Shown here: positions 1-9,410 of the stretch, in pieces
Layout of the letters: every line of letters starts with the position of its first letter
Numbering within the stretch: the stretch's first letter is position 1
Virus genome (UHGV): UHGV-1356964
Strand: one strand, 5' to 3'
DNA from: a virus
Length of the DNA stretch: 10,501 nt
Made by a program: the position numbers and the translations under genes
Notes under the pieces: generated by a model
The model's database searches: none
What the model was told of the DNA's origin: nothing
Seen by the model: the letters and a program-made list of their open reading frames with translations, nothing else

Positions 1-1025
1 GTAAGGAGAAAATCCTGACCGTCGGAAAATATCCGCTTATGACTTTGCAGGAGGCAAGGGATAAAGCATGGACTGCGAGGAAAGAGATCTCGGTTGGCAT
101 CGATCCGGTAAAGGCGAAATAGGCTTCGTCTAACAACAATTCCTTTAGCGCCATTTACAAGGAATGGTACGAGCACAAGAAGCAAGTCTGGTCAGTAGGA
201 TATGCAAATGAACTTGCAAAAATGTTTGATGACGACATTTTACCCATCATCGGCGGTCTTGAAATTCAGGATATTGAGCCGATGCAACTACTGGAAGTAA
301 TCCGCAGATTTGAAGATCGCGGTGCAATGGAGCGAGCAAATAAAGCCCGCAGAAGATGCGGCGAGGTTTTCCGTTACGCTATTGTCACCGGAAGGGCTAA
401 ATATAACCCGGCACCTGACCTTGCAGACGCCATGAAAGGATACCGCAAGAAGAACTTCCCGTTTCTTCCAGCAGACCAGATCCCTGCATTCAACAAAGCA
501 CTGGCAACATTTTCAGGAAGCATCGTATCGCTCATTGCGACCAAAGTTTTACGCTACACAGCCCTAAGAACGAAAGAGCTTCGTTCCATGCAATGGAAGA
601 ACGTCGATTTTGAAAACAGGATTATCACCATCGACGCCAGTGTGATGAAGGGTCGCAAAATTCATGTGGTTCCTATGTCAGACCAGGTGGTTGAACTTCT
701 CACTACGCTAAGCTCAATCACTAAACCAGTATCAGAGTTTGTTTTTGCCGGTCGCAACGATAAGAAGAAGCCAATCTGCGAGAACGCGGTATTACTTGTG
801 ATCAAACAAATCGGCTATGAAGGTCTGGAAAGCGGTCACGGATTCAGGCATGAATTCAGCACGATTATGAACGAGCACGAATGGCCTGCTGACGCGATTG
901 AGGTGCAACTGGCACATGCCAACGGCGGATCTGTGCGCGGGATTTACAACCATGCTCAGTATCTCGATAAGCGCAGAGAAATGATGCAGTGGTGGGCGGA
1001 CTGGCTTGATGGGAAGGTGGAGTGA
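1..1025 (+). pseudogene. int: Tyrosine integrase (P4/IntS-like), 5' end outside window, interrupted by in-frame TAG at 120-122; longest intact ORF is 222-1025
   Basis: The frame starting at position 3 reads KEKILTVGKYPLMTLQEARDKAWTARKEISVGIDPVKAK, then TAG (120-122), then ASSNNNSFSAIYKEWYEHKKQVWSVGYANELAKMFDDD, continuing without a frame change into the 267-aa ORF 222-1025. That ORF carries tyrosine-recombinase hallmarks (HGFRHEF for the H-x-x-R box, LAHANGGSVRGIYNHAQY with the C-terminal Tyr). Integrase-like sequence on both sides of a single stop in one frame indicates a nonsense mutation, or an amber-suppressed gene, not a true gene end. Stop is TGA at 1023-1025. Confidence 0.75.
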
Positions 1026-1306
1026 TCCACCTTAACTATCGAATGACATAAAGCCTTGCAATCCAGTACAAAGCTTTGCGTTTCTCAGTTTTGCCTCAAG
1101 TGGATACAAATACCACCACCTGATGTGGTACATATCATTACATGTAAATAATTATATGATCACGAACTTACTAAAATATAAACATCACAACCCCATACAT
1201 TTATCACCTAAGTGCTTGACAAATGGCAAATGGTTTTGCAATCTTTCTTTAATTAGCATGATGTTCATGCTACTATTTGTAGAATATTTTTCAAATATGG
1301 TGATAT

Positions 1307-1615
1307 ATGTTTAAATACTTGTTTTTTATACTTACCTTTATGGTTAGTAATTCATCAAGCGCAAAGATAAATGAAATAGTATGTGGTTCTCATCTTGTTA
1401 AAGTTAACACATCAAATGCGTCCAAAGTGCATCTAGATGATGTAGAATTTAGCCTTGAAAAAGAATTTTTTAACGAGGCTCGTTCTCTTGATTATATATC
1501 TATTGATAAAGAAAAATTCACTTTAACTGAGTTTTATTCTGGTGATTATAGTATAACAATACAATCACCAGAAACTAAAAAAAGAGATATTATTATGTGC
1601 AAGTTGTTACGTTAA
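1307..1615 (+). CDS. Hypothetical small secreted protein (102 aa, signal-peptide-like N-terminus), AT-rich cargo
   Basis: ATG at 1307 with GGTGA a few nt upstream. N-terminus MFKYLFFILTFMVSNSSSA looks like a cleavable signal peptide, followed by a hydrophilic ~80-aa domain. A 102-codon open frame in ~28% GC DNA is unlikely by chance because stops are frequent there. The ORF converges on and overlaps the stop of the neighbouring - strand gene (1607-1615), which lowers confidence. Confidence 0.35.
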   Translation: MFKYLFFILTFMVSNSSSAKINEIVCGSHLVKVNTSNASKVHLDDVEFSLEKEFFNEARSLDYISIDKEKFTLTEFYSGDYSITIQSPETKKRDIIMCKLLR

Positions 1616-2725
1616 CGCTTTGTTCTTATTTGAAATTGCACATATCATAGCAATAGCCATATAAAACACAGCAAAAAACGGCAGGCTAATTTTTAAAGAT
1701 GATAGCAACATCATTAGCTTTGCCCTTTTTGTTATTTTAATTTTAATTATAAAAACACAATATAATACTATGCATAATACTCCAAATGGAAGACCGAATA
1801 TTGTAATAAAGTTTCCAAATATAGTCATATCATATAACGACTCATAAAATGATGGCGCAGATTCTGACTTACCAATCAAACCATAACCAAAAATATATAA
1901 ATTTTGATTTCCAATAAAATCAAGAATGGTCTCTATCTTTATATTATTGCTACCATCAGCCCCAGATAGAAATAAAACAATCCTGTCATTTACAATATTT
2001 AAAACAGAAAGATACCCAATCACAAATATTGCTATCACTGGGATAATCATCCTAATTCTCATCATGCCAACACATAGCATGAGAAAGCAAAGAAATATTC
2101 CAACAAATGACAATGTAAACGTCATTGAAACGCATGACAGTAAAAACAAATAATCAATCTTTTTATTAATTGCATATCGTAACGTAATTAACCACGCTGT
2201 TATTCCGCAATATACACTTGGTTCTGCAGTTAGCCCTGTTGGCCTAAACCCAACTCCAGTCATCATATTTCTTGATGGTTCACCACCAATTAGCATAGAG
2301 TAGTCAACAATAGAACCAAATAAAAGTTTCGATACTACTTGAATAAATAAAGAGAGTATGAAAACTACTAGCGCTGCATTTATGGATCTCTCTAAAGTAT
2401 CTTTATCCACCCCCTTACATCCAACATATAACAAGTATGACGACACCACCCAAATTATTACTTTAAGCGTCTGTGATAATAATATCTCATTATGCTTTGA
2501 TATATAAACTTGGATAAATGAACTTATTATAACAATAGATACCACCATTATTATAAATAATAATGACTGATACGTCATTTTACTTACACTTTTTGCGTAT
2601 AAAAAAAGGCATGCGAATGGAAATAGGAATAGTTGTACACCATAAACTGTCACCGGAGATGCTAAATCTATAATTACACCAATTACTGCAATAAAAAGGA
2701 AAAAGGCACTCATGTTAACCACCAT
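1607..2725 (-). CDS. Polytopic inner-membrane protein, Wzy/EpsG-like (candidate O-antigen polymerase / serotype-conversion protein)
   Basis: 372-aa ORF with about 10 hydrophobic helix-length segments separated by short loops, one with GGEPSRNMMTGVGFRPTGLTAEPS. Very low GC. It lacks the N-terminal motif I associate with acyltransferase-3 O-acetylases, and its size fits Wzy-type polymerases (350-450 aa). It sits in the int-tailspike slot that P22-like phages use for O-antigen modification genes. The start may be the second ATG (2711-2713), which has GGTGG 5 nt upstream. Function is inferred from topology and context only. Confidence 0.6.
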   Translation of the reverse strand: MVVNMSAFFLFIAVIGVIIDLASPVTVYGVQLFLFPFACLFLYAKSVSKMTYQSLLFIIMVVSIVIISSFIQVYISKHNEILLSQTLKVIIWVVSSYLLYVGCKGVDKDTLERSINAALVVFILSLFIQVVSKLLFGSIVDYSMLIGGEPSRNMMTGVGFRPTGLTAEPSVYCGITAWLITLRYAINKKIDYLFLLSCVSMTFTLSFVGIFLCFLMLCVGMMRIRMIIPVIAIFVIGYLSVLNIVNDRIVLFLSGADGSNNIKIETILDFIGNQNLYIFGYGLIGKSESAPSFYESLYDMTIFGNFITIFGLPFGVLCIVLYCVFIIKIKITKRAKLMMLLSSLKISLPFFAVFYMAIAMICAISNKNKALT

Positions 2726-2742
2726 GATTTTGAATTTGCGAT

Positions 2743-2771
2743 ATTGTACAATGAGCGCCTTTGCTATGCAA
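2743..2771 (-). promoter_or_regulatory. Candidate sigma70 promoter for the Wzy-like gene
   Basis: On the - strand: -35 TTGCAT (reverse complement of 2766-2771), 17-bp spacer, -10 TACAAT (reverse complement of 2743-2748), directly after the tailspike stop and 18-30 nt upstream of the candidate starts. The -10 lies inside a perfect 10-bp palindrome ATTGTACAAT (2743-2752). Confidence 0.3.
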
Positions 2772-2772
2772 T

Positions 2773-4821
2773 TTATAAATATTTCAAGACAAACATCATG
2801 AGCTCATCATATCTTACACCATATCTGTCACCGAAATCAGTTTCGTCTTTGCACCAGAACCCATACTTTTCAGGATTTAACCCATTATTGCGCATTATGA
2901 CGCCAACCGTTTGCGCCCCGACACCAAAATGATAACGCGCGTTACCACCTTTACTTCTGATGCTCTCTTTCAGCTTGTACCTGTAAATACATTTTCTTAT
3001 TTCATTTGCCGCTTGTTTTTCTTTCAATAAAAGATCATCTGAACATCCGCATGGTTCTTTCATTGATTCATCTGATGTAGTTATTACACCTGTGGTAGAA
3101 TATATTGCTGACCATCTTTTTGTTGTATCGCCTAATGCCGTATCTGAGTCACCTTCAGGAGCTAATCTATTATAGCCACTAATAAGAAGGTCATTTTTTG
3201 GGAGCTCTTTTGATACTCCACCATCAGTTGATGTTAATTTAACGCCTCTTGTTCCAGGTATACTTTTTATTTCAATGCCTGCCTCTGATGTTCCTATTAT
3301 CTGTAGATCGGAATTTTTATTTCTACCATCCTGAAATGGAAGTTCAAAAACATTAGATGTAAATCTCCAATCCGTATCAGAATAAAGCTCGGCTGGTGAC
3401 GAGTTATCGCGCTGTATTATAATGGCACCTTTTCCGCTATCTCGTCTCCGACAACCGGCAATGTTTGCTTGGTTGGGATCCATATTTGAGCTAACCAACA
3501 CACCATCAAACTGAGATATGCTTTCGTAATTATTAGCTCCTTGCCGCTGTGCACTTTCACTTATATAAACCCATGCCCAATCAAAATGGTTCTCATAACT
3601 TCCAACGTTCAGGTCAATCTGATACGGACGAGTGCACAACTCGCCAAAAAACCCACGGAAGTGGATATTACCTGCCACTGATGTATCACTGTTCACCGTC
3701 TTAACAATACGTACTGCGCATGGCACGTCTGCAGGCCAATTGCCCAGAGTGATATTCTCGGAGTGGCCACCAAACACGCGCAAAGAGTCGGTAGACTCAA
3801 TCCAAAAACTACAATTTCCCGTGGCATGATGGGGGTTATATATATGTATGCGCGTATTATTATTATCGCCACTGACGCTGCGTTCAAAATAAAACCCACA
3901 GTCTACACGCTCAAAGTTAGGGTTCATAATTGAGTGGTAGTACGAGCCGCTGTTTTCACCTGATACTGTTGGTCCCGGCTTGAATTTCAGTCCGACTTTT
4001 ACTCCCCTTGCACGTGGATTCTCCATTACACAAAATTGCTGTGACACACGCATGGTTGCCTGAGATTCGTCTTCAGGAGCAATGGCGTAGGCAATAACGT
4101 CAGAGTAGTTATCTGGGTTAATTACTACAGGATTGATTATGTGGCAGAAATCATGGCTCATTCTTAAACATGTAATTCCCGAGTCTCCTGCTACGATTGT
4201 TGTACCAGTAAAATCAATATACCGTGTAGATGTAACATCCTGTGTATACGAGCCATCGAACTTCATTACAAGACTTTGTGTTATGCGATATATCGCACCT
4301 ACTCTCCCTGTTAATTTACCAAAAGGTATTCCTTCGAGCCATGCTAATGCTGATAACATAGATGTGGTGTCGTCAACAATCCCATCACCAATTGCCCCAA
4401 ACTCTTCAAATGTTTTAATGGCTGTCGCCCGATGCGCTATCTGATCAATTGTTGAGCCATATTTTGTTAGACTCTGCCTTAGCTGATCAGGATCATACTT
4501 CAGCACGTTTGGAAAATAGAACTGCTGTGCACCATACGCATCATAAACAGCCATAGAATGACCTTGCACCGTAACAAACTTGGCAATCTGTCCGTTATAT
4601 ACAGGGTAACCAGCAGAATTGATAATGATTGGTTGCGAAACAGGAATGTGAGATCCGTCTTCGTTCTCTACATAAACCTGAATCTGGTTTTCAGGATTTA
4701 CCGGGTCAGTATCAATTTTACCGATATAAATTTTGCCATTGGCTACGGCTTTAAAAGAACGCGCCATAGTGAAGAGTTGCGAAGGCATACTCACTACAAC
4801 ATTGGCTGTAATGTCTGTCAT
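2773..4821 (-). CDS. Tailspike protein (P22/Sf6-type head-binding domain, beta-helix-like receptor-binding domain, C-terminal intramolecular-chaperone-like domain)
   Basis: The N-terminus [61 protein letters not shown]...VLKYDPDQ matches, from memory, the conserved head-binding domain of P22-family tailspikes. The central region is Gly/Asn/Ser/Thr/Asp-rich with many aromatics, typical of a beta-helix glycanase. The C-terminus has TSDESMK, fitting the S-D-x-x-x-K Ser/Lys motif of self-cleaving chaperone domains. GGAG lies 8 nt upstream of the ATG at 4819-4821. Confidence 0.93.
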
Positions 4822-4877
4822 TTAATTTGCTCCAGATACAAGGAATCGCCGCAGCGGGACTACGGTGAATTTTGGGC

Positions 4878-4902
4878 ATAAAAAACCCAGCCGAAGCTGG
4901 GT
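4878..4902 (-). terminator. Intrinsic terminator (- strand) upstream of the tailspike gene
   Basis: The - strand transcript would form a 7-bp stem (ACCCAGC / GCUGGGU) with a 4-nt loop, followed by UUUUUAU (reverse complement of + 4878-4884). On the + strand the stem is followed by CGTTGCG, so it is not a + strand terminator. Confidence 0.55.
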
Positions 4903-4953
4903 CGTTGCGTTGGTTATCTGTCAGTAGTTATGTACTGGCTGAAGGATTTGTAC

Positions 4954-4983
4954 AAAAAACCACCTGACGGTGGGTTAATTTTT
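4954..4983. terminator. Hairpin with flanking A and T runs (bidirectional terminator candidate; stronger on - strand)
   Basis: Stem CCACC (4960-4964), loop TGAC, stem GGTGG (4969-4973). On the + strand it is followed by GTTAATTTTT; on the - strand by UUUUUUG (reverse complement of AAAAAA at 4954-4959). The stem is short (5 bp). Confidence 0.45.
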
Positions 4984-5001
4984 GCATTTACCTGGGCCAT
5001 A

Positions 5002-5030
5002 TTGACTACTCATAAAATGAGATCAATATT
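5002..5030 (+). promoter_or_regulatory. Candidate sigma70 promoter for the small basic-protein gene
   Basis: -35 TTGACT (5002-5007), 17-bp spacer, -10 AATATT (5025-5030), about 37 nt upstream of the ATG at 5067. The spacer contains the inverted repeat CTCAT-AAA-ATGAG (5009-5021), a possible operator. The -10 is weak. Confidence 0.3.
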
Positions 5031-5066
5031 TAATCGCCCAATAACGGGTGCATGTTGAGGTATATC

Positions 5067-5246
5067 ATGGCGAAAAAACCAGGTGAAAACACAGGAAAAA
5101 ACGGCGGAATATACCAAGAAGTTGGCCCACGCGGCGGTAAGAAAGACAATTTTGCCACCGTCAAGGACAACGAAAGGCTTCCACCAACAACAAAGCCAGG
5201 TCATGGCTGGGTATTGGATAAGCGAACTCCAGACAGCAAAAAGTAA
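5067..5246 (+). CDS. Small basic Gly/Lys/Pro-rich protein (59 aa), function unknown
   Basis: ATG at 5067 with GAGG 6 nt upstream; the track's 5052 start is probably an upstream in-frame ATG without a ribosome-binding site. Product: MAKKPGENTGKNGGIYQEVGPRGGKKDNFATVKDNERLPPTTKPGHGWVLDKRTPDSKK. A + strand terminator follows immediately (5253-5275). I could not place the family from memory. Confidence 0.6.
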   Translation: MAKKPGENTGKNGGIYQEVGPRGGKKDNFATVKDNERLPPTTKPGHGWVLDKRTPDSKK

Positions 5247-5252
5247 TAATCA

Positions 5253-5275
5253 AGCCGGTTCACTCCGGCTTTTTG
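5253..5275 (+). terminator. Intrinsic terminator after the small basic-protein gene (overlaps the 3' end of the convergent peptidase gene)
   Basis: Stem AGCCGG (5253-5258), 6-nt loop TTCACT, stem CCGGCT (5265-5270), followed by TTTT (5271-5274), 7 nt after the TAA at 5244-5246. On the - strand the same hairpin is followed by a moderately U-rich tract, so it may also serve the convergent gene. Confidence 0.6.
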
Positions 5276-5625
5276 ATATGTTGCTCGCAGAACTCAACAA
5301 GCCTGCTCATTAAGTAGCAGTAAGTCTCGTTGGCTCTTCCTGGTTCAACATCAACACCTACCCTTGAGCAGATATCGAATGCCATGTGAGCGCACTCATG
5401 GGCAATAGTAGATAGTTTGCCATTGAACACGCCTATCACATGCAAAACACCATTCTCGCTACTCATTGTATGAGACGCTCCGTTGGCGTCCGAGTCATGC
5501 ACGTCAACGCCAAGTTTTTGATGCAGGCGTTGCCATTCTGGAAAGTCTCTACAAAACACAATTGTACCGCTCTCAAAGAGCGGAACGAGCATCTTTGGTA
5601 CGTTTCCAATGTTAACTTTTTTCAT
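5260..5625 (-). CDS. Small HEXXH zinc-metallopeptidase-like protein, ImmA/IrrE (DUF955)-like, 121 aa
   Basis: The motif KLSTIAHECAHMAF (x-T-[LI]-A-H-E-x-x-H) is followed about 15-25 residues later by VEPGRANETYCYLMS, which resembles the E-x-x-A-N-x-[FY]-x-x-x-L-[LM] segment after the HEXXH in ImmA/IrrE-type peptidases. AGGA lies 4 nt upstream of the ATG. There is no adjacent helix-turn-helix partner gene. Confidence 0.75.
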   Translation of the reverse strand: MKKVNIGNVPKMLVPLFESGTIVFCRDFPEWQRLHQKLGVDVHDSDANGASHTMSSENGVLHVIGVFNGKLSTIAHECAHMAFDICSRVGVDVEPGRANETYCYLMSRLVEFCEQHIKKPE

Positions 5626-5659
5626 GGTATCCTGCGAAAAACTAAGGAGAGTTAATTAT

Positions 5660-6145
5660 ATGAAAAAATCACTGTTAATTATCCCGCTTCTGCTGGCTGG
5701 GTGCGCAAAAGTAAGCGACTATCAGGCAAGTTGCGAGCAACGCTATCCAAAGCTTAGCGATATGGCTAATTGCCTTGATGCCAGCTTGAAGAACGACTCT
5801 CGCATGGCATCAGCACCAACACCTAAGCTGTATGTCCTTGCTGCGAAGATGCTCGGGCAAGGTGTCGATGAAGGCAAGATAAGTGACACACAGGCAAGAC
5901 TTGAACTTCAGAATCTTTATGTTCAATTACAAAGCCAAGAACAAGCACAACAAATAGCACAAAGCCAAGCATTCCAGCAGGCTTTATTGAATTATCAGGC
6001 TGTAAACACAATGCAAGCGATCGAGCAAAAAGCGCGCCAGCCTGTTATAACTCAACCTTACCCAACACGCGTTGACACATATACAAACTGCAATTCAGGA
6101 TTTGGAAACACGGTAACATGCAACAGTAGCAGTAATATCAGGTAG
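5660..6145 (+). CDS. Lipoprotein (161 aa; lipobox LAGC, Ala at +2, Gln-rich middle region)
   Basis: ATG at 5660 preceded by AAGGAG (5644-5649). N-terminus MKKSLLIIPLLLAGCAKVS is a classical type II signal peptide with lipobox L-A-G-C. The track's longer ORF from 5609 would overlap the divergent peptidase gene start and lacks a ribosome-binding site. The mature protein is Gln/Ala-rich with a Cys-containing C-terminal tail (TNCNSGFGNTVTCNSSSNIR). Confidence 0.8.
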   Translation: MKKSLLIIPLLLAGCAKVSDYQASCEQRYPKLSDMANCLDASLKNDSRMASAPTPKLYVLAAKMLGQGVDEGKISDTQARLELQNLYVQLQSQEQAQQIAQSQAFQQALLNYQAVNTMQAIEQKARQPVITQPYPTRVDTYTNCNSGFGNTVTCNSSSNIR

Positions 6146-6159
6146 TTATATCTTATCTT

Positions 6160-8007
6160 TTATTGCTGTTCTGCTGTAATTTGGCTTGAAAGTATAGGGC
6201 GTATCGCATTTGCAGCATTATTTAGCGCTCTTTCATAGGCTGGTGTTCCTGCTTTGGTGTTTGCCAGACGTAAGAGAGCATTCCTTGCTGCTTTGGACTC
6301 ATACAAGCGCATCATTGCACCGAAACCAGCCTCAAGCCCCATTGATACGCCAAGAGTCGCAGTTGCGCCAATCGTCCTTATCCTGTTGGCTTGCGATTGC
6401 CCCGTCTGAGTTACTACATTTGCGGTGTCTGACCTTGCTGTTTGCTGTAGAACTTCATGAAGAGCATCAAGCTCTTTCATGTGCTTTCCTGAAAAAATAG
6501 TGTTGTAAATTTCACCGCCTGACTGAGATTTCAGCTTATTAACTTCAGTGATGAACTTGGCTGGAGAGTCACCGGCCTTTTCCGCTATTTTGCTGACGTA
6601 AGCTGCACGCATAGCATCTTTCCCTTTATCATCCAGTGCGCTCCAGATTCGTTTCACGTCAGATGGTTTTCTGCTTAATACAACGGTATTTATAAGTTCA
6701 GGACTGGCTTCACTGCTTGCCTTGTTGAGCTTGTTAGCAATGTTTTTATTAAGCACCTTATTATAAACGTTTGCATAATCGGAATTTGCTTTAAGGTATT
6801 TTGCTGCGTCTGATGCACCGAGGTTTTTTGCAACTGCGTTACGAAGATCTTTTGACATTGCATTCTCTACCATATTGGTAGCTGCTTTTGCCTGGTTGGG
6901 GAAGACCATAGCATCTCCCTGAACATTAGATCTAAATGCTGTTCTGTGCTGACGCAAGAGATCAAACGTAACATCCAAATCAGTTGCAGGGTTTGCTAAT
7001 TCTTCACGTAGGTTACGCAAGGATGTAAGCAGGCTTTGATTGGCAGACGTCCCAAGCCGTTCCTGTCTTGCGATCGCTGTATTCAGAGCATTCATGGTAT
7101 TTGTGGTATCAACTGCGGCATTACCCATTTTATTGGTAACGTCATTGATAACAGCGCCAGCGGCATCCTTCCGTCCCCTTAACGTGGTGGTCAGAGATTT
7201 CACCACATCATCCGGGTTGTACTCACCAAAACGGTCAAAATAATTACTTACCAACTTACTACGCGTTGCATATTGCTCCGCTCGCTTTGAGCCTGTCCCG
7301 AGCAAAGCCCCCTCGGCATCCTGAGTTAGGCCGCGAGTGAAAGCATTTTTCGGCGGGATAACATCAGATGTCATTGGTGTCACGCCCATCGATTCTGATG
7401 TGGCAATTTTCTTCGCCACTTCTGGCGCAATATCACCTTTTATAGCCGTTATTCCACGCCCTATTCCCTTTGCTGCTGCGGAAAGAACACCCTGAGTGGC
7501 AAGGTTAACTCCGGCATTTTTAGCTGCATTTTGTGCGAAATCGCCTTTCTGATTTGTGGCCTCTGCCAGTGAGCCAATAGCCATGCTTCCTGCCGTTCCA
7601 ACTCCTGGAACTAAATACCCACCAATTGTTTCACCGGCTTGCGCGTAAGGGTCTGTCGGTCGATCGACAGGGCGATAAACATCATCCAAAACCTTGGGGC
7701 CACCAAGCCCCTGGCTGATTGCATTAATCAGGCTTGCGCCGCCCTGTAATACGTCGAATGGTATATTTACCAGACCACGACCTGCCTGTTCTGCAATTTG
7801 CCCTGCACTTTGACCACCAGTGAGCCAATCGCCAGCTTGTTGCATCAATGAAGGTTCTTCACGTGCTGGTTCATTATTGGCCTGATTAACTGTTTGTTGC
7901 TGAACAGCCTGACCAGCAAAATACTCATCAATGGCGGTGCCAATATCTTCCGTGCTCGTACCATCAGGAAAGGTAAATGTCTTACCGTTTGCAGTTACTT
8001 TCATCAT
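6160..8007 (-). CDS. Ejection (DNA-injection) protein, P22 gp16-like
   Basis: 615-aa ORF, last gene of a tightly packed - strand operon. Its start overlaps the stop of the upstream gene (ATGATGA at 8001-8007). Size and position match P22 gene 16 (609 aa); composition is Ala/Gly/Asn/Thr-rich as expected for ejection proteins. The assignment is by synteny and size, not sequence identity. Confidence 0.88.
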
Positions 8008-9410
8008 TCCACCGTAAATTGAATGCCTGATTTTGATGTATATGATCCAACCTGATTCCGTGGTTCTCCTGAAGGTGTCGAATCTTGTGCTGGCGCTGCG
8101 TCAGTATTCATTGACATATACCGCTTAACGGCACTCCCCAATGATTCACCTTTTTTAACATCCAACCCCAATATCTGACCGCCATTACGCGATTGTCCTG
8201 GGTTGCCATTCGCGCTCATCCACTCGGCTTTAAACTCATTAAACTGCGCGTTTCGTCGCTCAAGGTTTGCCATAGCATCAAGCCATCTTGCGACCGTCTC
8301 AGGGTTATCCATGTCAGTTGGTGCACCCTGCCGAACGATCTCAACATCTTTATCCGTTGCGGGGCCGGGAGGTAGGAATTTAAGAACCTGACTGTTAACA
8401 AGGGCATTTTGGCGAATGCGCAAATCACGCAATGTCGTATCGCTTCCGGTAAGTTTTGCGAACATGTTCTGTGCGTTACCGAACAAACCTGTCGTTGGTT
8501 TTTCTGCTCTGAACTGTTGAGCAAGCGCACTCATAGAATTGGCTGAGTTTGATGATGCTGTGGCATTGTTTACAGCCGTCTCGATGCCTTTTTCCATGTT
8601 TACTGACAGCTTAGGTGCTTCGCTAATCAACTGCTGAGCCTTTTCCTGCGCTTGCTGCATCTTAAACCCGAACTCTTGCTGATCCAGAGCCAAGCGTTGT
8701 GCTGCGATATTGTGCCCAGTCATTGCTGACTGATAGGAAAGGTTTTGCCCTCTCGCCTGAAGTGCCTCGCCAGCCTGATTGCTGCGGATTGTCTCTGCCA
8801 GTCTGCCTCGGTCAATTTCACGACCAGCCATTTTGTCCTGAACATTGAAGTAATCAATCGGACCAAGAGCAGCCATCCCAAGGTGATCAACAAACTCACC
8901 AAATCCTGAAGGATTCTGCTGATACATCTGAGCAACGCTGTTAGGGTCAACACCGACGCGAGTCAGTTCCTTGGCGTTGTTTTGCAGCCATGATTGCATT
9001 GCTTCTGGAGACGATGACGCAAGGCGTGCGCCAGCCGCTAAGGTGCCGATAGAATTACGCTGGTCTTCATCAATGAATCCCATGCCTTTACGAACGGATT
9101 CAATCTGGTCTGGATATTGAGTAGCCAACTGACGCAAAGCACCGCGATCACCAGACGCATAAGCATTAGCGTACGCCTGCTGAAATTCTTTCTGTCGCTG
9201 AGCCTGCTTTTCCTGCTGAAACACCCCTGCAATACCTGAAAGACCTTGCAAAGCAGTCAGCCCAACATTGTTAGCGCCTGAACGCTCAATATCATTGTTC
9301 TGCCTGATAAGCTGAAGCGTATTGCCGATGTCATTTACGCTCGGAGCGTTTGAGTTGACGCCGCCGATACCAGCTAACAATCCGCCATTTGATCCTTGCC
9401 AAGTAGCCAT
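8004..9410 (-). CDS. Ejection protein, P22 gp20-like
   Basis: 468-aa ORF between the gp7-like and gp16-like genes; size matches P22 gene 20 (471 aa). GGGG lies about 7 nt upstream of the ATG, and the stop overlaps the downstream gene's start (translational coupling). Confidence 0.88.

What the first reader, a model, noticed from the sequence alone, without database searches (positions are those of the whole stretch)
4990..6159. The immI/sieA-equivalent hotspot holds a non-canonical three-gene set, each gene with its own expression signals
In P22 the region between gene 16 and the tailspike gene holds sieA and the arc/mnt/ant immunity genes (established). Here none of those is recognisable. 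Instead there is an outer-membrane-type lipoprotein (+), an ImmA/IrrE-like HEXXH peptidase (-) and a 59-aa basic protein (+), arranged divergent/convergent with individual ribosome-binding sites, a promoter candidate and a terminator. This slot is a known site for superinfection-exclusion and host-takeover cargo, so the trio is a candidate for an undescribed exclusion, antirepressor or defence module expressed from the prophage.
Basis: partly seen in the sequence, partly recalled or inferred. Interest (0 to 1): 0.75.

Follow-up and report, generated by a model that had tools for sequence, protein, structure and literature searches.

The report
Lipoprotein cassette in P22 sieA slot
This stretch is the well-known variable "ant moron" of a P22-like prophage: two of its three genes are ordinary P22/HK620 genes of unknown function, and only the lipoprotein gene, which replaces the exclusion gene sieA behind the same promoter, is an untested candidate phage-exclusion protein.

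Summary
The three ORFs, their orientations and their signals are real. The claim that nothing from P22 is recognisable is wrong. Window 4938-5653 is 97.3% identical to P22 itself and 4822-5653 is 97.5% identical to HK620. The 59-aa gene is P22 orf59a (HK620 HkcD, YjzC family). The HEXXH gene is hkcC, which is intact in P22. A mnt 3' stub, the tANT and tMNT terminators and the P_sieA promoter with its Shine-Dalgarno (SD) sequence are also present. mnt, arc and ant have been deleted, as in HK620.

The trio is not one module. hkcC and orf59a form a conserved convergent pair (78 of 78 loci, six further genera, also siphovirus-type prophages). The lipoprotein gene travels independently. It lies next to gene 16 in P22-like prophages of about 10 enterobacterial genera and in 186 of 5426 complete E. 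coli genomes.

In 80 viral contigs the sequence is conserved up to the SD and diverges immediately after it. At least 12 unrelated ORF families follow, including SieA and HkcB, and 11 of them are envelope-targeted. The lipoprotein is the commonest (18 of 80).

HkcC is a small HExxH...E zincin-like protein, not demonstrably ImmA/IrrE.

Best reading: the lipoprotein is a prophage-expressed envelope moron and a positional substitute for SieA. This function is untested.

The parts
4822..4937 (.). HK620-type remnant left by deletion of ant/arc/mnt. Contains the tANT hairpin terminator at 4884-4903, which reads on the - (late) strand.
   Evidence: 97.5% identical to HK620 but absent from P22. HK620 annotates 'terminator associated with remnant of P22 ant gene' here. 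Terminator scan.
4938..4973 (+). 3' stub of mnt (last ~10 codons, ...LKDLYKK, with a 1-base deletion) and the tMNT hairpin at 4960-4973.
   Evidence: Alignment to P22 mnt 3' end. HK620 annotation tMNT. Hairpin.
5002..5030 (+). Promoter-like site TTGACT-17-AATATT upstream of orf59a. Conserved in P22 and HK620.
   Evidence: only 1 site found against 2.9 expected by chance, so weak evidence. Conservation.
5067..5246 (+). orf59a (P22 ORF59a, HK620 HkcD): 59-aa basic protein of the YjzC family, function unknown.
   Evidence: phrog_3202 E = 7e-31. Pfam YjzC 19.4 bits, below the cut-off of 25. Relatives are named YjzC and distant hits carry PF14168.
5252..5271 (.). Bidirectional hairpin terminator shared by the convergent orf59a and hkcC genes (HK620 tORF59A).
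5260..5625 (-). hkcC: 121-aa stand-alone HExxH...E zincin-like protein on the late-operon strand.
   Evidence: HK620 hkcC. Intact in P22. phrog_1365 E = 3e-39. H76, E77, H80 and E100 are invariant in 61 homologues of 21-43% identity. AF2 pLDDT 89.
5595..5649 (+). P_sieA-equivalent promoter (embedded in the first codons of hkcC) and SD CTAAGGAG. The cassette junction lies at 5649/5650.
   Evidence: P22-pbi annotates P_sieA at the equivalent position. The 110 nt before the junction differ from P22 at 2 positions and from HK620 at none. Conserved in 80 of 80 contigs, with identity collapsing at 5650.
5660..6145 (+). Lipoprotein gene (161 aa; lipobox LAG|C15; mature protein with conserved Cys25, Cys38 and two C-terminal Cys). 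It occupies the sieA/hkcB position, convergent with gene 16 (14-nt gap, no terminator).
   Evidence: phrog_6067 E = 3e-109. Context. No terminator downstream above chance level.
6160..8007 (-). Gene 16 (DNA ejection/transfer protein), left boundary of the hotspot (context).
   Evidence: phrog_770 E = 8e-279. Alignment with P22 and HK620 gene 16 annotations.
2773..4821 (-). Tailspike gene (P22 head-binding domain at the N-terminus), right boundary of the hotspot (context).
   Evidence: Pfam Head_binding E = 1e-66.

Best explanation
The region is the 'ant moron' (immI/sieA region) of a P22-like (Lederbergvirus) prophage in its HK620-type degraded form. mnt, arc and ant have been deleted, leaving terminator stubs. 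What remains is two independent units.

Unit 1 is the conserved convergent pair hkcC and orf59a. Both are canonical P22 genes of unknown function. hkcC encodes a small HExxH...E zincin-like protein on the late-operon strand, so it is probably made during lytic growth. orf59a encodes a YjzC-family basic protein on the opposite, mnt/sieA strand.

Unit 2 is a lipoprotein gene that has replaced the sieA/hkcB ORF exactly after the Shine-Dalgarno sequence. It therefore inherits the P_sieA promoter and ribosome-binding site that drive sieA in P22 lysogens.

Inferred mechanism: the prophage expresses the lipoprotein at a low level. It is lipidated, probably sorted to the outer membrane and exposed in the periplasm. 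There it acts at the cell envelope as a functional substitute for SieA, most likely by hindering DNA delivery by incoming P22-like phages.

Shown here: the anatomy, the homology, the junction, the independence of the units, and expression of a 97.5%-identical homologue in a lysogen. Inferred: the localisation and the exclusion function.
For: Anatomy:
- 97.3% identity to P22 and 97.5% to HK620 over 4938/4822-5653.
- Matching HK620 and P22 annotations. hkcC is intact in P22. The literature names hkcC and 59a as P22 ant-moron genes.

Junction:
- Homology to P22 and HK620 stops right after CTAAGGAG.
- In 80 IMG/VR contigs the equivalent of 5540-5649 is conserved at nearly every position (one polymorphic dinucleotide at 5636-5637). 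Identity falls to about 23% at 5650.
- The ORF after the SD falls into at least 12 unrelated families. The lipoprotein is the commonest (18), followed by a 129-aa signal-peptide protein (11), SieA (10) and HkcB (9). Eleven of the 12 have an N-terminal hydrophobic segment.
- No locus has the lipoprotein together with SieA or HkcB.

Promoter: 85 bp upstream of P22 sieA plus the gene give exclusion of at least 10^7-fold (PMC10883804). The window shares 79 of those 85 bp, with 2 mismatches.

Independence: the lipoprotein gene always abuts gene 16, but its other neighbours vary across E. coli, Salmonella, Serratia, Yersinia, Morganella and Proteus. It occurs with three gp16 types.

Lipoprotein features: the lipid Cys is invariant and the lipobox Gly and Leu are at least 90% conserved in 36 homologues. 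The +2 residue is Ala. Four further conserved Cys suggest a periplasmic, disulfide-bonded protein.

Expression: Gally prophage gene GALLYPH_13 (97.5% identical) gives 70 normalised reads in LB against a prophage background of 15.6, while the neighbouring ejection genes stay at background. It rises by log2FC 2.55 in macrophages (PMC9928086 S1/S4 tables).

Pairing: hkcC and orf59a are convergent with a 10-30 nt gap in 78 of 78 loci. These include Rosenbergiella, Klebsiella, Xenorhabdus, Proteus and Pasteurellaceae prophages of other types.
Against: - No phenotype is known for the lipoprotein family. Pfam, NCBIfam and PADLOC give nothing.
- In LF82 the homologue fell just below the authors' 5x moron threshold in LB, and its upstream region differs from the window's.
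- It is induced in macrophages together with four neighbouring genes. This could point to a host-interaction role rather than phage exclusion.
- The consensus promoter scan does not detect P_sieA. It is a weak promoter, known only from P22 work.
- Sharing a slot with SieA does not prove sharing its function.
Confidence: 0.55

Rival explanations
1. One reading: the lipoprotein, the HExxH peptidase and the 59-aa protein form one undescribed three-gene exclusion, antirepressor or defence module.
For: The three genes are adjacent and compact, each with its own signals. The same trio recurs in about 18 of 5426 E. coli genomes, in 18 of 80 IMG/VR contigs and in one Morganella prophage, L017.
Against: The lipoprotein gene occurs without hkcC and orf59a in Yersinia, Morganella, Serratia, Proteus phage Brookers, E. 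coli O26 and Gally. hkcC and orf59a occur with at least 11 other slot genes, and in P22 with sieA. The recombination junction lies between hkcC and the lipoprotein gene. No PADLOC hit.
Confidence: 0.04
2. The lipoprotein is a lysogenic-conversion factor for host interaction or envelope fitness (Bor/Iss-like: serum, macrophage or stress survival), not a phage-exclusion protein.
For: The homologue GALLYPH_13 is up about 6-fold in macrophages (q = 5e-27). Prophage outer-membrane lipoproteins such as lambda Bor have this role (own knowledge). The family is widespread in pathogenic E. coli, including O26:H11 and the AIEC strain LF82.
Against: Deleting the whole Gally prophage did not change LF82 survival in macrophages. 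The induction covers five adjacent genes, including the tailspike gene, so it may be a regional effect. The only characterised occupant of the slot, SieA, acts on phage DNA entry. The family also occurs in Proteus, Morganella, Yersinia and Serratia (and in Pectobacterium by protein hit only, context not examined), which have very different lifestyles.
Confidence: 0.22
3. The active product of the slot is, at least in part, an RNA. Transcription from P_sieA runs past the lipoprotein stop codon, antisense into the 3' end of gene 16. This would interfere with late mRNA of incoming related phages, as reported for BTP1 STnc6030.
For: Only 14 nt separate the lipoprotein stop from the gene 16 stop, and no terminator above chance level follows on the + strand. 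In BTP1 an RNA antisense to the gene 16 3' end excludes BTP1, and the escape SNPs map in the gene 16 3' end (PMC7067206).
Against: The ORF is under clear protein-level conservation: 52-97% identity across genera, with an invariant lipobox Cys and further conserved Cys. The slot holds 12 unrelated protein families, 11 of them with export signals. That pattern argues for protein function. No Rfam match.
Confidence: 0.08
4. HkcC is an ImmA/IrrE-type protease that cleaves a repressor and so acts as an anti-repressor or induction switch.
For: HExxH motif with a downstream Glu. It lies in the immunity I region next to mnt in P22. The hkcC/orf59a pair travels with mnt-like and Bro-N antirepressor genes in Proteus and Xenorhabdus prophages.
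Against: No hit to Peptidase_M78 or to any other Pfam or NCBIfam model, for the window protein or for 60 of 61 relatives. In BFVD, IrrE-named models appear only at E > 0.03 and TM about 0.3, while SprT-like and metalloprotease names score 4e-5 to 3e-3. There is no adjacent HTH repressor partner here. Homologues occur in lytic phages and next to lysis and terminase genes.
Confidence: 0.06
5. hkcC and orf59a are a two-part system. The lysogen-strand gene makes a small YjzC-type effector, and the late-strand zincin neutralises or processes it when the phage itself goes lytic.
For: The convergent pairing is strict, with a shared bidirectional terminator, in 78 of 78 loci. It holds across six further genera and across phage types, down to 46%/64% identity. 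The opposite strands imply different expression phases.
Against: Purely inferential. More distant hkcC homologues (38-42%) lack any orf59a partner. 11 of 80 near-identical hkcC contigs lack orf59a. YjzC proteins also occur outside phages.
Confidence: 0.1

Closest known systems
Phage HK620 region between gene 16 and gene 9 (hkcB, hkcC, HkcD, tMNT/tANT remnants)
   Same: Window 4822-5653 is 97.5% identical. It has the same degraded immI region, the same hkcC and orf59a/HkcD genes, the same terminators and the same promoter and SD.
   Different: HK620 has hkcB (109 aa, N-terminal TM segment plus coiled coil) after the SD. The window has the 161-aa lipoprotein gene there.
Phage P22 immI/sieA region ('ant moron': sieA, hkcC, orf59a, mnt, arc, ant)
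   Same: Same position between genes 16 and 9. orf59a, hkcC, P_sieA and the SD are 97.3% identical.
   Different: mnt, arc, ant and sar are deleted except for a 10-codon mnt stub. sieA is replaced by the lipoprotein gene.
P22 SieA (inner-membrane superinfection-exclusion protein acting on the gp16/gp20 ejection conduit)
   Same: Same slot, same strand, same promoter and SD. The two are mutually exclusive in 80 contigs. Both are envelope proteins.
   Different: No sequence similarity. SieA has three predicted TM helices and sits in the inner membrane. The lipoprotein has only a cleavable lipoprotein signal and is predicted to be periplasm-exposed, probably anchored in the outer membrane. Its function is untested.
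Exclusion lipoproteins of other phages (T5 Llp, phi80/N15/HK022 Cor, Streptococcus TP-J34 Ltp)
   Same: Small prophage- or phage-encoded lipoproteins that block entry of related phages at the envelope (Ltp: abstract and the citation seen; Llp and Cor: own knowledge).
   Different: No detectable sequence relationship. The window protein matches only phrog_6067, of unknown function. Those proteins target FhuA or the tape measure of siphoviruses, whereas any target here would belong to a podovirus. No phenotype is known.
BTP1 STnc6030 antisense RNA
   Same: An exclusion determinant transcribed opposite to the late operon at the gene 16 3' end of a P22-like prophage.
   Different: STnc6030 is described as non-coding and spans a gene 16-tailspike junction. 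Here a conserved protein-coding cassette is present.
Small stand-alone zincin-like phage proteins (SprT-like/'metalloprotease' annotations; gluzincin HExxH+E signature)
   Same: HkcC has invariant HExxH and a Glu 20 residues after the second His. That is the spacing in thermolysin-type gluzincins (own knowledge). It gives significant Foldseek hits to phage proteins annotated as SprT-like or metalloprotease.

Membership tests
P22-like 'ant moron' / immI region | Lies between the gene 16 (ejection protein) and gene 9 (tailspike) homologues of a P22-like late operon | tested here: met
   Gene 16 at 6160-8007 (-), tailspike at 2773-4821 (-). Definition from PMC2629481.
P22-like 'ant moron' / immI region | Functional mnt-arc-ant(-sar) antirepressor circuit | tested here: not met
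   Only the last ~10 codons of mnt and the terminator remnants remain. No Rfam sar match.
P22-like 'ant moron' / immI region | Nucleotide homology to the P22 or HK620 region | tested here: met
   97.3% (P22, 716 bp) and 97.5% (HK620, 832 bp).
SieA superinfection-exclusion proteins (types A-C) | Sequence homology to SieA, including the FxRYPxEAxxFNK motif | tested here: not met
   The lipoprotein matches only phrog_6067. Its homologue list contains no SieA. The motif is absent from its sequence. Motif taken.
SieA superinfection-exclusion proteins (types A-C) | Integral inner-membrane protein with three or more TM helices | tested here: not met
   The only hydrophobic segment is the signal peptide, residues 4-14. 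The mature part is hydrophilic (GRAVY -0.56).
SieA superinfection-exclusion proteins (types A-C) | Position convergent with gene 16, expressed from P_sieA | tested here: met
SieA superinfection-exclusion proteins (types A-C) | Blocks DNA injection by P22-like phages | not testable with these tools
   Needs plating and K+ efflux assays.
Bacterial lipoproteins (signal peptidase II substrates) | Positively charged n-region, hydrophobic h-region and lipobox [LVI][ASTVI][GAS]C | tested here: met
   MKK-SLLIIPLL-LAG|C15. C15 is invariant, and G14 and L12 are at least 90% conserved in 36 homologues.
Bacterial lipoproteins (signal peptidase II substrates) | Outer-membrane sorting (no Asp at +2, the Lol-avoidance rule; own knowledge) | tested here: met
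   The +2 residue is Ala, invariant (A16). This is a prediction only.
Bacterial lipoproteins (signal peptidase II substrates) | Actual lipidation and localisation | not testable with these tools
   Needs globomycin or palmitate labelling and cell fractionation.
ImmA/IrrE (Peptidase_M78) metalloproteases | Match to the family profile | tested here: not met
   No Pfam or NCBIfam hit at E <= 0.1 for HkcC. None of 61 relatives hit M78 at E <= 0.01.
ImmA/IrrE (Peptidase_M78) metalloproteases | Fold similarity | tested here: not met
ImmA/IrrE (Peptidase_M78) metalloproteases | HExxH motif | tested here: met
   H76-E77-C-A-H80, invariant. The motif is not specific to this family.
ImmA/IrrE (Peptidase_M78) metalloproteases | Adjacent cognate HTH repressor (ImmR-like) | tested here: not met
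   The neighbours are orf59a and the lipoprotein gene.
Zincin (gluzincin-type) metalloproteins | HExxH plus a third ligand Glu on the following helix | tested here: met
   H76, E77, H80 and E100 are the only invariant columns among 61 sequences of 21-43% identity. The model places them on helices 71-89 and 100-114.
Zincin (gluzincin-type) metalloproteins | Structural or profile similarity to a solved zincin | tested here: inconclusive
YjzC family (PF14168) | Match to the family profile | tested here: inconclusive
   The window protein scores 19.4 bits against a cut-off of 25, over nearly the full profile length. Relatives of 76-81% identity are named YjzC family by UniRef, and more distant hits carry PF14168.

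The most novel reading that the evidence does not exclude
The position directly after the conserved P_sieA promoter and SD in P22-like prophages may be a plug-in slot. It would hold a natural library of at least 12 unrelated envelope-targeted proteins that all serve superinfection exclusion. Its commonest occupant, this lipoprotein, would then be the first outer-membrane or periplasmic blocker of a podovirus ejection-protein conduit (gp7/gp20/gp16). That would be a mechanism distinct from inner-membrane SieA and from receptor-masking lipoproteins such as Llp and Cor.
Probability: 0.3. Interest if true: 0.7.

Novelty: new member of a known kind. Interest (0 to 1): 0.38.

Why it matters
The region itself is textbook P22 biology, and two of the three genes are long-known ORFs. 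The finding as written is therefore much less novel than claimed.

What remains useful is a sharply defined and testable system. One invariant promoter and ribosome-binding site is followed, in different prophages, by a dozen unrelated small envelope proteins. Only one of these, SieA, has a known function.

The lipoprotein is the commonest of them. It is present in about 3% of complete E. coli genomes and in at least ten enterobacterial genera. If it and its slot-mates block DNA delivery, they would give new handles on how podovirus ejection proteins cross the envelope, and on prophage-conferred resistance relevant to phage therapy.

The strict hkcC/orf59a pairing also gives a first clue for two P22 genes that have had no function for 40 years.

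Tried and rejected
- Pfam, NCBIfam and PADLOC scans of all three proteins gave nothing beyond a sub-threshold YjzC hit.
- The profile search of HkcC against PDB sequences gave only weak metzincin hits, E = 0.025. I use these only as a hint.
- I asked whether Gally gene 14, in the hkcC position, is an hkcC homologue. It is not.
- I asked whether the window exists as such in complete E. coli genomes. At most 67% is covered, because the tailspike and O-antigen part differs, so the source strain was not identified.
- Rfam and tRNA scans of the window were empty.
- A literature search for any study of the lipoprotein family found none in the held library. This is not proof of absence.
- The consensus promoter scan does not pick up P_sieA. 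The promoter assignment therefore rests on the P22 annotation and on published function, not on my scan.
Full report
**What the window is.** The late genes of a P22-like (Lederbergvirus) phage lie on the minus strand. They are a DUF2824/gene 14-like ORF, gene 7, gene 20 (8004-9410), gene 16 (6160-8007) and a tailspike gene with the P22 head-binding domain (2773-4821). A low-GC membrane-protein gene and an integrase gene follow. The finding covers the stretch between gene 16 and the tailspike gene. Casjens and co-workers named this stretch the "ant moron". They described it as being in rapid flux, with ten types among sixteen genomes (PMC2629481).

**Check of the observation.** The three ORFs exist as described.
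- A 59-aa basic protein (5067-5246, +, pI 9.9).
- A 121-aa HExxH protein (5260-5625, -).
- A 161-aa protein with a canonical lipoprotein signal, MKKSLLIIPLLLAG|C (5660-6145, +).

All three have many homologues and strong PHROG matches. The signals are also present: Shine-Dalgarno (SD) sequences, one promoter-like site before the 59-aa gene, and hairpin terminators. Six terminator-like sites were found against 1.6 expected by chance.

**The claim that nothing from P22 is recognisable is wrong.**
- Megablast shows window 4938-5653 to be 97.3% identical to P22 itself. Window 4822-5653 is 97.5% identical to HK620.
- By the annotations of those records, the 59-aa gene is P22 orf59a (HK620 "HkcD") and the HExxH gene is HK620 hkcC. 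The hairpins are HK620's tANT, tMNT and bidirectional tORF59A.
- The hkcC ORF is intact in P22, though not annotated in that record. The literature lists hkcC and 59a as the two P22 ant-moron genes of unknown function.
- The last ten codons of mnt survive at 4938-4968.

The window therefore carries the HK620-type degraded immI region. Most of ant, all of arc and most of mnt are deleted.

**The junction.** Homology to P22 and HK620 stops exactly after the SD sequence CTAAGGAG (5642-5649). After it, P22 has sieA, HK620 has hkcB and the window has the lipoprotein gene.

P22-pbi annotates P_sieA at the position equivalent to window 5595-5625, inside the first codons of hkcC. Leavitt et al. showed that sieA with 85 bp of upstream DNA gives exclusion of at least 10^7-fold (PMC10883804). 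The window shares 79 of those 85 bp, with two mismatches.

I fetched 80 IMG/VR contigs that carry hkcC at 98-99% identity. In all 80 the equivalent of 5540-5649 is conserved at nearly every position, apart from one polymorphic dinucleotide at 5636-5637. Identity collapses to about 23% at 5650.

The ORF after the SD falls into at least 12 unrelated families:

| Slot ORF family | Contigs |
|---|---|
| Lipoprotein, 161 aa | 18 |
| Signal-peptide protein, 129 aa | 11 |
| SieA | 10 |
| HkcB | 9 |
| Eight others | 1-8 each |

Eleven of the 12 have an N-terminal signal or transmembrane segment. No contig has the lipoprotein together with SieA or HkcB. This is a plug-in slot for envelope proteins, and the lipoprotein is its commonest occupant in this sample.

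**The trio is not a module.** The lipoprotein family comprises 90 clusters across E. coli, Citrobacter, Serratia, Klebsiella, Cronobacter, Yersinia, Pectobacterium, Morganella, Providencia, Proteus and Tatumella. Wherever I examined its context, it sits convergent with gene 16 in a P22-like prophage (contexts seen in E. coli, Salmonella, Serratia, Yersinia, Morganella and Proteus). Its other neighbours vary:
- none in Yersinia and Morganella;
- mnt only in E. coli O26 and Proteus phage Brookers;
- a Bro-N antirepressor gene in Serratia;
- an unrelated 139-aa gene plus mnt in phage Gally;
- a complete immI region plus orf59a and hkcC in E. coli 2013C-4991.

It occurs in 186 of 5426 complete E. 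coli genomes and with three different gp16 types.

hkcC and orf59a, in contrast, are a tight pair. They are convergent with a 10-30 nt gap in 78 of 78 loci where both were found. These include Morganella, Proteus penneri, Xenorhabdus, Rosenbergiella, Klebsiella oxytoca and a Pasteurellaceae genome. In several of these genomes the pair sits among the tail genes of siphovirus-type prophages, sometimes beside mnt-like and Bro-N genes. More distant hkcC homologues (38-42% identity) sit between lysis and terminase genes, without orf59a.

**What the proteins are.**
- *ORF59a.* It is a YjzC-family protein. It scores below the Pfam threshold on its own, but its relatives are named YjzC and distant hits carry PF14168. 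Its function is unknown.
- *The lipoprotein.* It has an invariant lipid Cys, Ala at +2 (predicted outer-membrane sorting) and two invariant Cys in the N-terminal domain. Two further Cys lie in a C-terminal hairpin. A helical N-terminal domain is modelled with confidence (residues 18-95, pLDDT 79-90). A Gln-rich helix and the C-terminus are poorly modelled. Fold search was uninformative, and there is no PADLOC hit.

**Expression evidence from the literature.** Phage Gally of E. coli LF82 carries a 97.5%-identical lipoprotein gene, GALLYPH_13. In the LF82 RNA-seq tables it gives 70 normalised reads in LB against a prophage median of 15.6. The adjacent ejection genes stay at 12-14. This is 4.5-fold, just under the authors' 5-fold "moron" cut-off. 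The gene rises by log2FC 2.55 (q = 5e-27) in macrophages, together with its four neighbours (PMC9928086). So the family is transcribed from a prophage, on the strand opposite to the late genes. [quoted passage not shown]

**Mechanism.** I commit to the following. The lipoprotein is a prophage-expressed envelope moron driven by P_sieA. It is a positional and probably functional substitute for SieA, hindering DNA delivery by P22-like phages from the periplasmic side. I give this about 0.4-0.45. The anatomical statements stand at above 0.9.

The rivals are as follows.
- A host-interaction factor of the Bor type, about 0.22. It is favoured by the macrophage induction and disfavoured by the lack of a ΔGally phenotype.
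- An antisense-RNA effect on gene 16, as proposed for BTP1 STnc6030. It is possible because no terminator follows the gene. It is unlikely to be the main function, given the protein-level conservation.
- For hkcC and orf59a, a speculative two-part system expressed in opposite phases.

**Novelty and score.** The hotspot, orf59a and hkcC are already known. The lipoprotein family is uncharacterised, but it fits a known kind: a prophage envelope moron and exclusion candidate in a known slot. The slot census and the hkcC/orf59a pairing are modest new observations. They make long-standing unknowns directly testable. Interest 0.38.

Noticed in passing
window 3-1025 (+), stop codon at 120-122: The IntS-type integrase reading frame enters from the left edge of the window and is interrupted by an in-frame stop codon (...GIDPVKAK*ASSNNN...). 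The listed 267-aa ORF starts downstream of it. The integrase may be a pseudogene, which would make this a defective or locked-in prophage.
   Followed up: partly
window 1000-2800 (ORFs 1307-1615 + and 1607-2725 -): A low-GC island (28-34% against 42-54% elsewhere). It holds a 372-aa polytopic membrane protein and a 102-aa protein, neither with any Pfam, PHROG or NCBIfam match. It sits where HK620 has an 'O-antigen modification protein' similar to an O-antigen polymerase. It is probably a serotype-converting gene acquired from elsewhere.
   Followed up: partly
window 5540-5649 and loci L030-L109: An invariant promoter and SD is followed by at least 12 unrelated small ORF families, 11 with signal or TM segments. 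They include a 129-aa secreted protein (11 contigs) and several TM proteins of 62-109 aa. Apart from SieA, no function is known for them (HkcB is annotated 'unknown').
   Followed up: yes
L013 5001-5556, L014 5001-5563, L019 6001-6580, L020 5947-6527, L021 5908-6563: The hkcC/orf59a convergent pair also occurs outside P22-like phages. It is inserted among the tail genes of siphovirus-type prophages (Rosenbergiella, Klebsiella oxytoca, Xenorhabdus, Proteus penneri) and in a Pasteurellaceae genome. In some cases it lies next to mnt-like and Bro-N antirepressor genes, as if the whole immI-type unit were mobile.
   Followed up: partly
L022-L026, L029 (about 5000-6400): More distant HkcC homologues (38-42% identity) in Kluyvera, Citrobacter, Mixta and Atlantibacter prophages sit just after lysis genes and before terminase genes, without an orf59a partner. 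This fits a late, lytic-phase role for the family.
   Followed up: no
window 2773-4821 (-): The tailspike has the P22 head-binding domain only in its first ~115 residues. The rest is unrelated to P22 gp9. There is a weak C-terminal match to the endosialidase intramolecular chaperone domain (Peptidase_S74, E = 0.027). No complete E. coli genome in the collection covers more than 67% of the window, mainly because of this part.
   Followed up: no
L003 2947-3366 (phage Gally GALLYPH_14): In Gally the hkcC position is occupied by an unrelated 139-aa gene. In the published LF82 RNA-seq data it is strongly expressed in some non-LB conditions (log2 values about 10-11) and is induced in macrophages. 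Its function is unknown.
   Followed up: partly
loci with HkcB: All 9 contigs with hkcB in the slot carry the HK620-type gene 16, whereas the lipoprotein and SieA occur with several gp16 types. This could reflect simple linkage or a functional match between the slot protein and the ejection protein.
   Followed up: no
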